Assembly (NCBI GenBank): GCA_038042445.1
Contig: JBBTED010000149.1
Coordinates: 1-15,221 of the forward strand
Direction of reading: 5' to 3'
DNA length: 15,221 bases
DNA from: Candidatus Firestoneibacteriota bacterium
GTDB lineage: Bacteria > Oederibacteriota > D2-FULL-39-29 > JBBTED01
This document shows positions 1-6,000 of this stretch, one piece after another; positions within the stretch are counted from its first letter, which is position 1; the number at the start of each line of letters is the position of its first letter. The position numbers were made by a program.

Positions 1-3000
1 ATCTCATTATGTTTTTAGATCCTGAAACAAGTTCAGGATGACAAAAACAACGTTTTAATCATTCTACTAATATTGCGTTAAATTTACACATCTCAAAACA
101 TGTGCCGCATTTTGTGCATTTAGATTGGTCTATTAAATGCGATTGTTTCTTTTCTCCAGTTATAGCATTAACAGAACAATTCTTTGCGCATAACGTACAT
201 CCTGTGCATTTTTCAGAAACTACTGAATATTTTATAAGTTCTTTGCATACTTTTGCAGGACATTTTTTATGTTTAATATGTGTTTTATATTCATCTCTAA
301 AATATCTAATAGATGTTAATACAGGGTTGGGTGCACTTTTACCAAGCTGGCACAAAGATGTTTCTTTTATATTTTTCCCAAGTTCTTCAAGTAAATCAAT
401 ATCATTTTCTTTGGCTTTGCCATTTGAAATATCATTTAGAATATTTAGCATATGTTTTATTCCTTCGCGACAGGGTGTGCATTTTCCACAAGATTCTTCC
501 TGGGCAAATGCCAGGAAATATTTTGCAATATTGACCATACAAGTGTCTTCATCCATTACTATCATTCCACCAGAACCCATCATTGAGCCAGCTTCTGTAA
601 GTCTTTCATAATCTACAGGCAGATCCAAAAGAGAGGTGGGGATACATCCACCTGATGGACCGCCTGTTTGAACTGCTTTGAATTTTTTTTCATTAGGAAT
701 ACCACCACCTATTTCAAAAATCAATTCTTTTAAAGTTATGCCCATTGGAACTTCAACTAAACCTGTATTGTTTATTTTTCCTACAAGAGAAAATATCATT
801 GTTCCTTTGCTTTTTTCTGTTCCTATTTTGCTATACCATTCAGAGCCATTATTAATTATCAAAGGGATATTTGCCCATGTTTTTACATTATTTAAAACTG
901 TTGGTTTGTCCCATAATCCTTTTTCTGTTGCATGGATATATTTTGCACGTGGCTCTCCTACTTTTCCTTCTATAGATGCCATAAGTGCGCTTGATTCCCC
1001 ACATACAAATGCACCGCCGCCACGCATTATTTTTATATCAAAATTAAAATCACTGCCCAAAATATTTTTGCCTAAAAATCCGTATTCTCTCATTTGGGAT
1101 ATAGCAATTTGAACCTGTTTTACTGCTAAAGGATATTCGTTGCGAACATAAATATATCCTTCCTGTGAGCCAATAGCATAGGCGCCTATTAACATTCCTT
1201 CCAGAATGCTATGTGGATTTCCTTCAAGTAAACTTCTATCCATAAATGCACCAGGATCTCCTTCATCAGCATTGCAAATAACATATTTTATATCGCTTTT
1301 TGCTTTTTTGGCTGATTCCCATTTTCTTCCAGTAAAAAATCCTGCACCTCCACGGCCACGCAATCCTGATTTTTTTATTTCATCAATTATTTCATCTGGT
1401 GTTATTTGAGATAATGCTTTTACCAATGCACTGTAACCACCGATTCTAATATAATCTTTAATGCTTGTAGGGTCAATTTTTCTATTGTTTGCCATAAGTG
1501 GGCGCGTTTGTTTTTTGTAAAATGGAACATCTTGTTCATAAACAACTTTTTGCCCTGTTTTTGTATCTGTGTAAAGCAGTCTATCAATAACATTATTTTT
1601 TATTAGGGTTTCATCAATTATTTCTTTTACATCTTCAGCTGTTACTTTTTGATAAAAAATTCCAGAAGGTTCAAGTACAAGTAAAGGACCTTTTTCACAA
1701 AATCCCTGACAACCAGTTTTTCTAATAGCAATATTTAAATTACGAAGTTCGATTTCTTGTTCGAAAGCTTTTGCTACTTTATCGCTTCCAGCTGCTGTGC
1801 ACCCAGTACAACATATTACTACACATAGTTTTGATGCATCATAGTTGGATATTATAGTTTTTCTCAAATTTTCAAGTTCAGATATTGAGTTAATTTTTTT
1901 CATCGGATTTTTTGTATTCTTTGATTATTTTATCAGCTTTGCTTGTAGTCATTTTAGCAAAATATTGATCATCTGTTGTTACAAGTGGAGCAAGTGCACA
2001 GGCACCAAGACAATTTACAGTTTCTAAAGTCACATTTAAATCATCAGTTGTTTCACCCGATTTTATATTTAACTCATCTTCAAATTTATCAAGTATCTTT
2101 TGGGAGCCACGAACATGGCACGCAGTTCCAATGCATACACATATATGATGTTTACCACGAGGCTTTAAACTAAATGCTTTATAGAAAGTTGCTACACTGA
2201 AAATTTGGCTTAAAGGTATATCTAATTTAACAGATATTTCTTTTAAAATATCCGCAGGTAAATAATTGTATTTAGCACTAACATCCTGCAGTATAGGAAT
2301 TAAAAAACTTTTATCTTTATTGTATTTTTCTAAAATTTCATCAATTGACATAATCTACAAGGAATTTATTTGCAGCAGTTTTTCTAATATCAGCTGATTC
2401 TTCTGCTGGGGTTTTAAATTTTAATGCTTTAGTTGGACAAATTTCAACACATGCAGGTAACTTTCCTGTTTTTACTCTTTCAAAACATAAGTCACATTTA
2501 GTTATGGCTTTTTCTTCCCTGTTCATTTTTATAACACCAAATGGACAAGCAATTATACAATATTTGCATCCAATACATTTTTCGGTATGAATTAATACAG
2601 GTGTATCAGAAGATGGACGTTCAAGAGCTTTTGAAGGGCATACTTTGACACAAGGTGCATCTTCGCACTGCCTGCATTGCATTGGAATAGGCAAGCCAGA
2701 AGCATTTTCTATAATAATTCTTGTTTGGGAAAGCTTTTCTTCAAATATTGCAGTTTCTAAATTTTTTGTTTCTGAATGTTCTACAGCACAAGCAAGTTCA
2801 CAACTTTTACAACCTGTGCATTTTTTTACATCTACCCATATATGTTTAATCATAGATATCTCCGATTTATTTTTTTGGTGGATACATCATTGGGTTAAGT
2901 TTAAGCGCAGCGCGTTTTTTGTCTAAATGTTCTATTATTATATGAGCAGCTTTTATTGGATCTTCTTCAAATGCCCATTTGCCGCCTGTAATACTTTCAA

Positions 3001-6000
3001 CATCTTCAGTTACAAATTTTGTAACATTTTTACTGCCTAATGTGAAAAATGGTGAGCCAAATACAACTAGAAGCCCTGATGCAACTGCATACCATCCAAT
3101 AGCTATTGCTTTTTCAGACATCCATTCTAATGCTACGCCAGCAACAGGAAGTTCATCCAAACTATTGCCTATGCCGCCTTCTTCAACCATTTTACAACAT
3201 TCTATTAAGATACGGCTGTTGTCTACACAGGAACCTGTATGCAATATTGGAGGAATACCTACTGCTTCACATACTTCTCTTAATCCGTCTCCTACAAATT
3301 TTTCATAAATAGCTTCTGGTTTTAATAATCCTTCTTTTGCACAGTCTATTGCTACGCATCCTGTTTCTACAAATAACACGTCATACTTAAGCAATTCTTT
3401 TATCATTTCAATATGTGATGTTCCACTTTTGAATTTTGGATTGTCGCATCCAACTGCTCCTACAACACCACGTAGTCTTCCTGATATTATAGCATCATTT
3501 AGAGGTCTGTAAGATCCTCTGAAACTACCGCCTAAATGATAATTAATATTTTCTGTTGTAAATCCGGCTATAAAATCTACTTTTTCGTTTGGTATTTTTA
3601 CTTTTTCTTGCTTTCTGTTTATGAAATTTTCAACGCCTATTTTTACTATTTTTTTTGCAATATCTAACCCTTCTTTTTCATCAAATTCAATATATTCAGT
3701 GCCTGGAAAATTTGCTCTTGCACTTGTAGATACTATTTTTGTATGAAAATGCGATGCAACTTGTGGAAGCGAAGGCATGATACACTGTAAATCAACTATC
3801 ATTAATTCAACAGCTCCAGTTGTAAGTGCAACTTCTTGTTGTAAAAAATTTCCTGCAACAGGAATTCCACGTCTCATAAGTATTTCATTTGCAGTGCAGC
3901 AGATTCCTGCAACATTTATTCCTTTTGCGCCTTTTTCTTTTGCAAGGGCAAGTAATTCTGGTGTTTGCGCTGCGTCTACTATTAATTCGGATAAAAGTGG
4001 GACATGTCCATGGACTAATATATTTACCTCATCAGTTTTAAGTACACCCAAATTAACTTGTGCTTTTCTTGGTTGAGGAGAGCCAAATAATATATCGCAT
4101 AATTCAGTTGAAAACATAGAGCCGCCCCAGCCATCACTTAGAGCTGTTCTCATTCCACCAAAGAAAATATGTTTGTAATCTGTGTCAACGCCTATATTTG
4201 TTCGTGCCATCATTTCAACAATTTCTCTATCTATACCTCTGGGTGTTAAATTATATTTGTCCCAGATTTCCTGTTGTTTTTTAGGGGCACGTTTTAAAAA
4301 TGTCAATTTGCCATTTTGCTGGCCATATTCTGCTAACATTTTTTCAGCAAGTTCTTTTGCTATATCGTTATCATTTTTATTATCAGTTTTTATATTAAAT
4401 TCAGTTGCAATAGTTCGAAGTTTAACAGGATCCTTTATTGAGTATCCTTTTGTTTCACCACGTGCGGTTAGAAGCAATGTATTTGTAATTTCTCTGCCGT
4501 GGTCATTATGACATGCTGAACCTGCTGCTATATGTCTGGCAATGTTTCTCGCACTTATAGTGTCTGCATCAGCACCGCATACACCATATTGTGCGCCTTC
4601 TTTAAATGGGTCTATTCTGCATGGACCCATATTACAATTTTTGCAACACAAACCAAGTGTTCCAAATCCACAATGTGGTTCTTGTAGTTTATATCGGTCC
4701 CATACAGTAGTAATGTTTTCACATTCTGCAATATCCCGCATTTGTAAAGTTGCTTTATCCCCGAATTTTTCTCCAGCTTTTCCCATTTTATCCCCCTAAA
4801 TTAAATGCTATTGACAGACAAGACGTCTGTCCTACTTTAGACGTATTGTTACAAAATCTTTGAATTTATTGATAATTGTAGGGGCAGGTTTACCTGCCCA
4901 TTTATTGGGCGAGTAAACTCGCCCCTACGATATTTATTATTGGTGAGTCGTACAGGGATCGAACCTGTGACACCCTGATTAAGAGTCAGGTGCTCTACCA
5001 ACTGAGCTAACGACCCACTTTATTTAACAATTGCTTAATTTTTTCTATAATTTTATCTGTTTCAGTAAGTCTGCCTTTTCCTATAGTGCCACAAGCAAGT
5101 TTTCCTGTGTCAGGTCCTACAAAAAAATATCCTGATTTTTCAAGTTTTTTTATGTTGCTTTGCACAATTGGATTTTCATACATATTCACATTCATTGCAG
5201 GTGCGAATAGCACAGGTGATTTGCAGGACATTATTACTGTTGATAGTAAATCATCTGCTATTCCATTTGCAATTTTGCCTATTATATTTGCACTTGCAGG
5301 AACTACAACAATTAAATCAGATTTATCTGCAAGTGAAATATGTTCTATTTTCCAATCGACTTTTTCTTCAAACATATTAACATAAACTTTGTTTTGTGAC
5401 AATGTTTGAAATGTCAAAGGTGTTACAAATTTAGCTGCATTTTCTGTCATTACAACATTTACATTTGCATTTTCAGATTTTAAACTGCTTACCAGATAAA
5501 CAGCTTTATATGCAGCAATTGAGCCAGTAATACCCACTAATATATTTTTGTCTTTTAAATCCATTTATTATCTTTTTTTATATAAAGGCGATATTGCTCT
5601 TAATCGCGTGATTACTTTTTTTAAAATGTCAGCCACTTTGTTTATGTTATCTTCAGTTGTTTGTCTGCCTAATGTTAGGCGTAATGAACTGCGTGCATCT
5701 TCAGGCGCAACTCCAATAGAAGTTAAGACATGTGATGCTTCTAATGAACCGGAGCTACATGCAGAACCTGTTGAAGCAGCGATTCCTTCCATATCAAGAT
5801 TTAATACCATAGATTCGCCTTCTATATGTTTTATAGTAACATTTATATGTCCTGGAAGCTTTGCAGTTGGATGTCCATTTAATTTTGTTTGTTCAATTTC
5901 AGTTAGAATTCTATTGGTTAATTTATCCCTAAGACAAGTTAGATTTTCTCGTTTTTGTACGAGTTCACTAATTGCTATTTCTACTGCTTTTCCAAATCCT

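What a model noticed while it worked through the whole genome (the two positions that open the first line are those of the whole stretch)
59..4786. CODH/ACS operon with an embedded CooF and hydrogenase-less HydABC (Bfu) module
cooS-cooF-bfuC-bfuB (C149) continues into bfuA-acsB (C67:76278-79226): a NAD/ferredoxin module of the HydABC type, whose A subunit has no H-cluster domain, lies inside a CO dehydrogenase/acetyl-CoA synthase operon. It points to an electron-bifurcating CODH/ACS in a phylum where ACS is rare.
Evidence so far: The end of C67 and start of C149 share 46 bases; relative G012 has cooS, acsB-cooF-C-B-A-acsC on one contig at 44-69% identity. g02331 has the N-terminal 2Fe-2S domain, NuoF core and two C-terminal 4Fe-4S clusters; g01339 is 248 aa of Fe-S domains only. 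ACS in 5 of 54 phylum genomes; two other-class loci lack the module. AcsC, D, E, RACo and MetFV are elsewhere in the genome.
(Added by a program. Inside this text positions count along the whole contig: contig position 1 is position 1 of the stretch shown here. "Call 12" and the like, gene names such as g00115 and contig names such as C1 are that model's own, and its searches are not shown. The text may have been shortened before it was handed on; [...] marks where a part breaks off. The agent that wrote the report below was given it as the finding of a first reader that could run no searches.)

Follow-up and report, generated by a model that had tools for sequence, protein, structure and literature searches.

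The report
Bifurcating-type module wired into CODH/ACS
In an uncultured groundwater bacterium, the operon for the CO2-fixing enzyme CO dehydrogenase/acetyl-CoA synthase carries a flavin and iron-sulfur module of a kind known to split electrons between NADH and ferredoxin, plus a wire protein that fits it, which suggests a cheaper but still untested way to power this step.

Summary
The window encodes cooS-cooF-bfuC-bfuB, and contig C67 continues with bfuA-acsB. The contigs overlap by 48 bases (not 46) inside a REP-like repeat, but four further lines support the join. BfuBC keeps every cluster ligand of the bifurcating core. BfuA has no catalytic domain and ends in the WorA-type zinc finger. BfuA and CooF best match WorA and WorS (PDB 9MQX), and a predicted BfuA-CooF complex scores 0.80 against 0.02 for the best control. 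In related operons the same slot holds a plain NAD(P)H oxidoreductase (23 of 26 cooF loci), and CooF has a long C-terminal tail only beside Bfu. Best reading: CODH is wired through CooF to an NAD(P)H/ferredoxin confurcating module. Bifurcation, direction and nucleotide are inferred, not shown. A CODH-Bfu enzyme was predicted in 2022 and 2025 for stand-alone CODHs; a 2019 survey lists NuoEFG-like genes near acetyl-CoA-pathway CODHs. This scan already noted the same layout in at least 13 other genomes. It is a new variant of a predicted, never purified kind, and is not confined to this phylum.

The parts
2867..4786 (-). cooS/acsA, Ni-CODH catalytic subunit, 639 aa
   Evidence: TIGR01702 above cut-off. 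D/B-cluster Cys 39, 47, 48, 51, 56, 70; C-cluster His261 and Cys 297, 335, 447, 477, 520; catalytic His93 and Lys559 are present and align with PDB 6t7j (role assignments recalled).
2341..2853 (-). cooF, 4x[4Fe-4S] wire with C-terminal helix (residues 149-169), WorS-like
   Evidence: 16 Cys; AlphaFold model pLDDT 95, helix 149-169; top PDB hit WorS 9mqx by sequence and by fold; predicted to dock on BfuA.
1890..2351 (-). bfuC (HydC/NuoE-like), [2Fe-2S] cluster C1
   Evidence: PF01257 174 bits; Cys 73, 78, 114, 118.
59..1903 (-). bfuB (HydB/NuoF-like), FMN/NAD(P) core with B1, B3, B4, B5 clusters and the B2/Zn site
   Evidence: Pfam domains; ligands aligned to 7t2r_B, 9mqx_B, 8a6t_B; the nine best PDB hits are all long BfuB-type subunits.
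1..48 (.). 48 bases shared with the end of contig C67: spacer and right arm (17-42) of a 64-nt REP-like doublet lying in the 92 nt between bfuB and bfuA. bfuA (C67 78480-79226) and acsB (C67 76278-78467) follow on the minus strand outside the window.
54..63 (-). 10-mer spanning the bfuB stop codon that recurs at the bfuA start on C67; probable target duplication of the repeat insertion into an ancestral stop/start overlap
   Evidence: G017 has the 4-nt bfuB/bfuA overlap intact.
4941..5016 (-). tRNA-Lys(CTT) directly upstream of cooS, marking the upstream boundary of the operon; no cooC gene here
   Evidence: hairpin at 4882-4899.

Best explanation
The operon encodes a CODH/ACS whose CODH exchanges electrons, through CooF, with a Type 2 BfuABC module instead of free ferredoxin alone. 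Path: C-cluster to B to D cluster of CooS, four clusters of CooF, then A4-A2-A1 of BfuA, then the FMN/B1/C1/B5 core, where NAD(P)H (at FMN) and ferredoxin (at B3/B4) are coupled. Net, 2 CO2 + NAD(P)H + 2 Fd(red) give 2 CO, which ACS removes at once into acetyl-CoA. This halves the ferredoxin spent on the carbonyl branch. CooF probably stacks through its C-terminal helix into a short wire capped by the BfuA zinc-finger helix, as in WorABC(SL)3. Shown: genes, order, ligands, conservation, covariation. Modelled: BfuA-CooF contact. Inferred: CooS-CooF contact, strict coupling, reductive direction, nucleotide, wire stoichiometry.
For: All BfuBC cluster ligands are present, including His542, which PMC9304861 calls near-invariant in Bfu and absent from non-bifurcating homologues. 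A219/M221 and GGPSG match the bifurcating signatures of PMC7311640. BfuA has A1, A2, A4, no A3, and the four zinc-finger Cys invariant in 120 aligned sequences. WorA and WorS are the top PDB hits of BfuA and CooF. Predicted BfuA-CooF complex: 0.80, best of 3 controls 0.02; that mark was reached by 116 of 157 solved and 2 of 215 mismatched pairs (counts hold only roughly with my own alignments); runs agree in at least 95% of contacts, partner pLDDT at least 83; the interface joins the A4 loop (167-173) to CooF 91-109. CooF tail is 30-53 residues in 9 of 9 Bfu loci and 9-29 in 21 FNOR loci. The slot after cooF holds FNOR in 23 of 26 cooF loci. The module sits in a CODH operon in G017, L046 and 7 of 80 metagenome loci, 6 of them with acsB, in several gene orders. 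No FeFe-hydrogenase was found in the genome, and the second BfuBC has its own FDH-type A subunit.
Against: No activity, expression or purified protein exists. The complex score may come from memory of WorA-WorS (9MQX), so it shows likeness, not binding. The CooS-CooF and CooS-AcsB contacts were not modelled. The mean donor potential (-390 mV with NADH) lies 130 mV above CO2/CO, so reduction needs pCO2/pCO above about 10^4.4. CooC, FolD and Fhs were not found in this 90%-complete assembly. The FNOR loci are mostly Omnitrophota and the Bfu loci include kin, so the tail contrast is not a set of independent trials; L057 has a 31-residue tail with neither partner. A fifth B2 ligand position holds Ser, and residue 341 is Lys where most relatives have Glu.
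Confidence: 0.55

Rival explanations
1. The module is wired to CODH but acts as an uncoupled NAD(P)H diaphorase, the functional twin of the FNOR found in the same slot. CO from acetyl-CoA cleavage or from the environment would be oxidised steeply downhill to NAD(P)+.
For: FNOR occupies the same position in 23 of 26 cooF loci. An archaeal ACDS coupled directly to F420 shows that CODH can use a high-potential acceptor (PMC11493965).
Against: Non-bifurcating homologues lack B2-B5 (PMC9304861), while this BfuB and its CODH-linked relatives keep them. Its closest solved relatives include enzymes reported to bifurcate.
Confidence: 0.2
2. CooS-CooF-BfuABC is a bifurcating CO-scavenging or acetate-oxidising enzyme (Codh-Bfu in the 2022 sense) running oxidatively. 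In this strain the rest of the Wood-Ljungdahl pathway may be scattered or decaying.
For: Bifurcation widens the usable pCO2/pCO range from about 10^0.7 (ferredoxin only) to 10^4.4, the rationale given in PMC9304861. The acs genes lie on three other contigs; CooC, FolD and Fhs were not found. A repeat has separated bfuA from bfuB, and bfuA shows no purine-rich ribosome-binding motif. CooS is closer to 6t7j and D. vulgaris CODH than to Moorella AcsA.
Against: G017 has folD, two cooC-like genes and fhs with the same module. G000 has ORFs with PurN, Fmt, PurH and GlyA motifs, which need formyl-THF, so a missing contig is likelier than loss (motifs recalled). All six genes are intact, and AcsB keeps Cys 507, 510, 519, 529, 596, 598. 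Acetate kinase is present.
Confidence: 0.13
3. The BfuABC genes are co-transcribed with the acs genes but serve another partner (methylene-THF reductase, the 3b hydrogenase, FDH, corrinoid reactivation).
For: Close BfuB relatives sit beside HdrA, FDH and a glutamate-synthase-like FMN protein in most of 80 metagenome loci. ACS-linked BfuBs do not form one group (7 label changes among 9 rows), so the module is mobile.
Against: cooF precedes bfuC directly even when cooS moves away (G017), the CooF tail covaries with Bfu, and the BfuA-CooF model passes.
Confidence: 0.09
4. The C149-C67 join is a repeat artefact and bfuA-acsB do not follow bfuB.
For: The overlap lies in a repeat with 137 arm hits, and several contigs of this assembly end in it.
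Against: Unique 48-mer. Identical BfuA, BfuB, BfuC, CooF, CooS and AcsB each have a longest contig of 82,084 bases in the protein collection, and variants of A, B and AcsB at 90% or more each a 15,788-base contig (same contig inferred from equal lengths). Shared 10-mer on both flanks. Same order in L046, L156, L158, L211.
Confidence: 0.03

Closest known systems
WorABC(SL)3 of Acetomicrobium mobile, electron-bifurcating tungsten aldehyde oxidoreductase (PDB 9MQX; PMC12318220)
   Same: Short BfuA with A1, A2, A4, no A3, C-terminal zinc finger; 4x[4Fe-4S] small subunit with C-terminal helix; BfuB central segment best matches WorB (437 bits against 383 for the next); low-potential third substrate.
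   Different: The catalytic partner is a Ni-CODH homodimer in an operon with ACS, not a tungsten enzyme; the likely direction is reductive; the wire stoichiometry is unknown.
Codh-Bfu / CodhABCSF, predicted from genomes (PMC9304861; PMC12318220)
   Same: CooS plus CooF plus catalytic-domain-less BfuABC in one cluster; Type 2; zinc finger and helix on BfuA.
   Different: Published examples are 4 sequences in clade 49, only Firmicutes, three subunits besides ABC, proposed for CO oxidation or detoxification; 'acetyl-CoA synthase' has 0 occurrences in the 2022 paper and 'acetyl-CoA' 0 in the 2025 paper. Here acsB follows directly, the host has outer-membrane barrel genes, and the BfuB core looks WorB-like.
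Ni-CODH/CooF/FNOR clusters (PMC6344411)
   Same: CODH linked through CooF to a pyridine-nucleotide flavoprotein; the same slot between cooS and acsB in 23 loci.
   Different: FNOR is a single FAD protein with no ferredoxin branch, and its CooF lacks the long C-terminal tail.
F420-reducing ACDS of ethane-oxidising archaea (PMC11493965)
   Same: A CODH/ACS hard-wired to a flavin module instead of free ferredoxin.
   Different: Archaeal Cdh-type enzyme, F420 as acceptor, oxidative, no bifurcation proposed in the passages read.
HydABC of Thermoanaerobacter kivui and Acetobacterium woodii (PDB 8A6T, 7Q4V; PMC10021017)
   Same: BfuBC core; T. kivui HydB (NADP-using) shares Ser in place of the second Glu of the GEET motif (Ser304 here).
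   Different: HydA carries an H-cluster and A3; here there is none.

Membership tests
BfuABC family (PMC9304861) | BfuB with NuoF core, SLBB, B1 site and C-terminal 2x[4Fe-4S]; BfuC NuoE-like | tested here: met
   Pfam PF01512, PF10531, PF10589, PF00037; PF01257. Pfam equivalents were used, not the InterPro entries themselves.
BfuABC family (PMC9304861) | N-terminal [2Fe-2S] B5 of BfuB | tested here: met
   Cys31/32, 35, 65, 69 align with 7t2r_B and 9mqx_B; the first loop is one residue shorter than in G017.
BfuABC family (PMC9304861) | B2/Zn site ligands (A. mobile C438, H525, C531, C536; C476 variable) | tested here: met
   C455, H542, C548, C553 present; Ser at the C476 position. The paper reports Thr there in about two-thirds of BfuB.
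BfuABC family (PMC9304861) | Tightly coupled reduction of NAD(P)+ and ferredoxin | not testable with these tools
   Needs an enzyme assay.
Type 2 Bfu | BfuA with A1, A2, A4, lacking A3 and A5 and any catalytic domain | tested here: met
   248 aa; no HxxxCxxC motif; the four C-terminal Cys align with the WorA zinc finger.
Bifurcating beta subunits (PMC7311640) | A/E232 and M234; GGPSG at 427-431 (T. maritima numbering) | tested here: met
   A219, M221 and GGPSG 414-418, at an offset of 13.
Bifurcating beta subunits (PMC7311640) | Phe, not Tyr, at position 367 | tested here: inconclusive
   By offset, 367 maps to Ser354, so the numbering does not transfer. The site matching Nqo1 Tyr180 (recalled) is Phe299; nearby residue 357 is Tyr, as in WorB.
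Codh-Bfu (PMC9304861) | CODH genes within the bfu cluster | tested here: met
   cooS-cooF abut bfuC with an 11-nt overlap.
Codh-Bfu (PMC9304861) | BfuB in clade 49 | tested here: inconclusive
   No published Codh-Bfu sequence was in my tree. Full length scores best with NiFe-BfuB (clade 49; 823 against 785 bits), the core best with WorB (clade 45; 437 against 380).
Codh-Bfu (PMC9304861) | Three subunits besides ABC (A-F) | tested here: not met
   Only CooS and CooF, matching the five-subunit CodhABCSF of PMC12318220, followed by acsB.
Bacterial CODH/ACS | CooS with intact cluster ligands and AcsB with A-cluster ligands | tested here: met
   Above NCBIfam cut-offs; Cys positions.
Complete Wood-Ljungdahl pathway | Fdh, Fhs, FolD, MetF, AcsE, AcsCD, CooC | tested here: inconclusive
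   Fdh-type proteins, MetF, AcsC, AcsD, AcsE found; Fhs, FolD, CooC not found in a 90%-complete assembly; all present in G017 as far as tested.
FeFe-hydrogenase HydABC | H-cluster domain | tested here: not met
   Absent from BfuA and PF02906 not found in the genome.
Complex I N-module or HoxEFU | NuoF/HoxU/HoxE equivalog cut-offs; adjacent nuo or hoxYH genes | tested here: not met
   TIGR01959 491 below 559; HoxU 124 below 333; HoxE 152 below 224; no such neighbours.

The most novel reading that the evidence does not exclude
A confurcating CODH/ACS supercomplex: one BfuABC plug feeds a CooF nanowire that carries several CODH/ACS units and reduces CO2 to channelled CO with NAD(P)H plus ferredoxin, possibly NADPH (Ser304, Lys321, His324 near the nucleotide site). 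It halves the ferredoxin cost of the carbonyl branch, has been recruited more than once in uncultured anaerobes, and swaps with a plain FNOR in the same operon slot.
Probability: 0.35. Interest if true: 0.85.

Novelty: new variant of a known kind. Interest (0 to 1): 0.55.

Why it matters
Energy models of acetogens treat CO2 reduction to CO as strictly ferredoxin-dependent (established knowledge, recalled). If CODH/ACS can draw half its electrons from NAD(P)H, more reduced ferredoxin is left for ion pumping, and energy budgets drawn for many uncultured anaerobes change. The operon supplies a five-gene construct for the first test of the Codh-Bfu class, and the FNOR-bearing sister operons give a natural non-bifurcating control.

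Tried and rejected
Laying four runs on window 1-5000 gave no contig listed as bridging the junction; pieces begin at positions 17-19, inside the repeat. This neither supports nor refutes the join. No RNA holder was listed. Three of 80 acsB loci first looked Bfu-positive; L018 and L047 were dropped because their A subunits are 909- and 778-aa molybdopterin proteins. L206 has an AcsC-like hit but no cooS and was not counted. A single origin of ACS-linked BfuB is not supported by the quick tree (75 of 85 rows; 10 partial or fused rows dropped; no root, no clade test). A recent duplication from the genome's FDH-linked BfuB (60% identical) is not supported by the same tree. The promoter scan gave chance-level counts (22 against 21.4). 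NADP specificity could not be settled: Ser at 304 is shared by NADP-using T. kivui HydB and by NAD-bound WorB, and a search for the NuoF E183 literature returned 0 papers. Passages of PMC5736913, PMC7325909 and PMC6203783 did not describe this layout. The phylum of the genome was not determined.
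Full report
OBSERVATION. The first 4.8 kb of the window carry four co-oriented minus-strand genes: cooS 2867-4786, cooF 2341-2853, bfuC 1890-2351 and bfuB 59-1903. CooS passes the TIGR01702 cut-off (635 against 478 bits). BfuC is PF01257. BfuB has the NuoF core, SLBB, the NADH_4Fe-4S region and C-terminal Fer4 domains, but falls below the complex I NuoF cut-off. The genes are 13 nt apart or overlap by 11 and 14 nt. Upstream is a tRNA-Lys. Contig C67 ends with bfuA (78480-79226, 248 aa) and acsB (76278-78467, 729 aa; NF040764 1049 against 800), 12 nt apart.

THE JOIN. The two contigs share 48 exact bases, and neither end has another partner among 181 contigs. The overlap lies in a REP-like doublet (137 hits of the 26-nt arm at up to 4 mismatches, both strands), but includes the spacer, and its longest exact piece elsewhere is 33 nt. 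Four further lines support it. (a) In the protein collection, identical BfuA, BfuB, BfuC, CooF, CooS, AcsB and the flavoprotein upstream of the tRNA (7 of 8 proteins asked; the eighth was not in the collection) each have a longest contig of 82,084 bases; variants of BfuA, BfuB and AcsB each lie on a 15,788-base contig. I infer shared contigs from equal lengths and could not view them. (b) The same 10-mer spans the bfuB stop on C149 and the bfuA start on C67; 0 of 53 other doublet matches share 9 or more bases between their own flanks, and 1 of 53 foreign right flanks shares 10 with the C67 flank. (c) In G017, bfuB and bfuA overlap by 4 nt, the state a repeat insertion with target duplication would start from. 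(d) The same gene order occurs unbroken in L046, L156, L158 and L211.

ANATOMY. BfuB keeps ligands for B5 (C31/32, C35, C65, C69), B1 (C472, C475, C478, C518), the B2/Zn site (C455, H542, C548, C553), B3 and B4. PMC9304861 (sections 4, 5 and 6 read in part) states that non-bifurcating homologues lack B2-B5 and that the His is missing in only 8 of 1558 BfuB. Two of the three sequence signatures of PMC7311640 (passages read) are met; the third could not be mapped. BfuA has A1, A2 and A4 ligands, no A3 motif, and C202/C205/C232/C235, invariant in 120 aligned sequences. Its best PDB match is WorA over nearly the whole length (E 1.7e-46). PMC12318220 (passages and sections 7 and 11 read) describes these four Cys as a zinc finger that supports a helix recruiting WorS. 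CooF's best match is WorS by sequence and fold, and its model ends in a helix at 149-169. The predicted BfuA-CooF complex scored 0.80, best of 3 controls 0.02; 116 of 157 solved and 2 of 215 mismatched pairs reached the mark (roughly applicable, as my own alignments were used); runs agreed in at least 95% of contacts, partner pLDDT at least 83. The interface puts the BfuA zinc-finger region and A4 loop against CooF 91-109, the geometry needed for electron transfer. WorA-WorS is solved, so the pass may be from memory. The CooF tail is not in this interface, which fits a role in CooF-CooF stacking as described for WorS.

DISTRIBUTION. AcsB occurs in 6 of 99 phylum genomes. G017 (same class, other family) has folD, two cooC-like genes, cooS, two unrelated genes, acsB-cooF-bfuC-bfuB-bfuA-acsC and Fhs elsewhere. 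The fetched acs loci of G001, G050, G051 and G060 lack the module; G060's is split over two contigs, and G001 has a BfuB-like gene about 20 kb away that I did not examine. Among the best 80 of 571 BfuB loci from metagenomes, 7 lie beside cooS, 6 of them with acsB; others lie beside HdrA, FDH or a glutamate-synthase-like protein. The CooF tail after the last cluster motif is 30-53 residues in 9 of 9 Bfu loci and 9-29 (median 14) in 21 FNOR loci; 2 FNOR loci could not be measured, and 2 loci with neither partner have 31 and 70. Kin are not independent here. In a quick tree, G000 groups with G017, the CODH-linked L152 and the short L185 (SH-aLRT 99), while other ACS-linked BfuBs fall elsewhere. 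The DNA is held by groundwater metagenomes; X3 and X6 gave long near-identical pieces.

GENOME CONTEXT. Found: AcsC and RACo (C87), AcsD and AcsE (C38), a second AcsE-like gene (C150), MetF (C6), acetate kinase (C160), a second BfuBC with a 933-aa FDH-type A subunit (C95), a group 3b-like NiFe hydrogenase and HdrA. Not found: FeFe-hydrogenase, RnfD, Fhs, FolD, CooC. The assembly is 90% complete. folD and the cooC-like genes are neighbours in G017, and G000 has ORFs with PurN, Fmt, PurH and GlyA motifs (motifs recalled), so a missing contig is the likelier reason, though loss is not excluded.

MECHANISM. With the potentials tabulated in PMC9304861 (CO -520, Fd -500, NADH -280, NADPH -380 mV), equilibrium pCO2/pCO is 10^0.7 for ferredoxin alone, 10^4.4 for NADH plus ferredoxin, 10^2.7 for NADPH plus ferredoxin and 10^8.1 for NADH alone. 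A free CODH could hardly reduce CO2 with the mixed donor, but ACS removes CO in a strongly exergonic step (recalled), so ACS linkage is what makes confurcation plausible. I favour the reductive direction because the ACS pull makes it feasible and acetate kinase is present; sugar fermentation also supplies NADH and ferredoxin together (recalled). The oxidative direction remains open. BfuB has Ser304 where NAD-type HydB subunits have Glu, as does the NADP-using T. kivui enzyme (PMC10021017, passages), and His324 aligns with its NADP-contacting Arg340; but WorB, solved with NAD, has the same residues, so the nucleotide is undecided.

KNOWN SYSTEMS AND NOVELTY. PMC9304861 predicted Codh-Bfu from 4 Firmicutes sequences for CO oxidation; PMC12318220 renamed a five-subunit form CodhABCSF and says it has not been purified. 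Neither text mentions acetyl-CoA synthase. PMC6344411 (passages) lists NuoE/F/G-like COGs among genes grouped with Wood-Ljungdahl CODHs, without a mechanism. PMC11493965 (passages) shows an archaeal ACDS wired to F420. Searches found no paper describing a Bfu module coupled to CODH/ACS; the library lacks most subscription papers, and of the listed papers I opened only those cited here and in Tried and rejected. The scan's own notes hold 13 findings with this layout in at least 13 genomes, of which I saw 8; they are unchecked and I count them as prior notice, not support. Verdict: real, well supported as architecture, a new variant of a predicted and untested kind.

Noticed in passing
G000 C27:76649-78152 (L100:693-2196, minus strand): hgcA and hgcB, both above NCBIfam cut-offs: the organism is a candidate mercury methylator.
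   Followed up: partly
L024, L034, L048, L052, L055, L064, L075, L088, L092, L056 (records titled Omnitrophota or Planctomycetales): acsB about 50% identical to the query carries a 115-140 aa N-terminal extension (300 aa and FNOR-like in L056); where folD is in view, no cooS lies between it and acsB. Possibly a CODH-less, FNOR-fused ACS lineage.
   Followed up: partly
window 7729-15113, plus strand: Run of co-oriented genes: outer-membrane barrel, unannotated 516-aa protein, two TPR proteins, PqqD-like chaperone, ATP-grasp ligase and PLP decarboxylase. It looks like a peptide-modification or small-molecule biosynthesis cassette.
   Followed up: no
window 1-48 and 15170-15221; genome-wide: A REP-like doublet family (137 arm hits) sits at both ends of this contig and at several other contig ends. 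An earlier scan note (e1-7657491) reports a RAYT transposase in this genome.
   Followed up: partly
L001:5372-14223 (C67), plus strand: Multiheme cytochrome c nitrite reductase-like gene followed by a membrane-bound complex with NuoB/NuoCD-like subunits, converging on acsB (all below family cut-offs).
   Followed up: no
L146, L151, L154, L162, L170, L179, L183, L187, L195: Close BfuCBA relatives followed by a 520-530 aa ORF; the two tested are glutamate-synthase-like FMN proteins. Already noted by the scan (e1-4750383).
   Followed up: partly
L021:9273-9944: A 223-aa CooF with two extra C-terminal [4Fe-4S] motifs resembling the BfuB B3/B4 domain, between cooS and acsB, with neither Bfu nor FNOR.
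   Followed up: no
L018 and L047: FDH-type BfuABC placed within or just upstream of the CODH/ACS operon.
   Followed up: partly
G000 C81:7229-13913: hdrA with neighbours that read like hdrCB, mvhD and flx genes (for HdrA; the other labels recalled from ORF starts).
   Followed up: no
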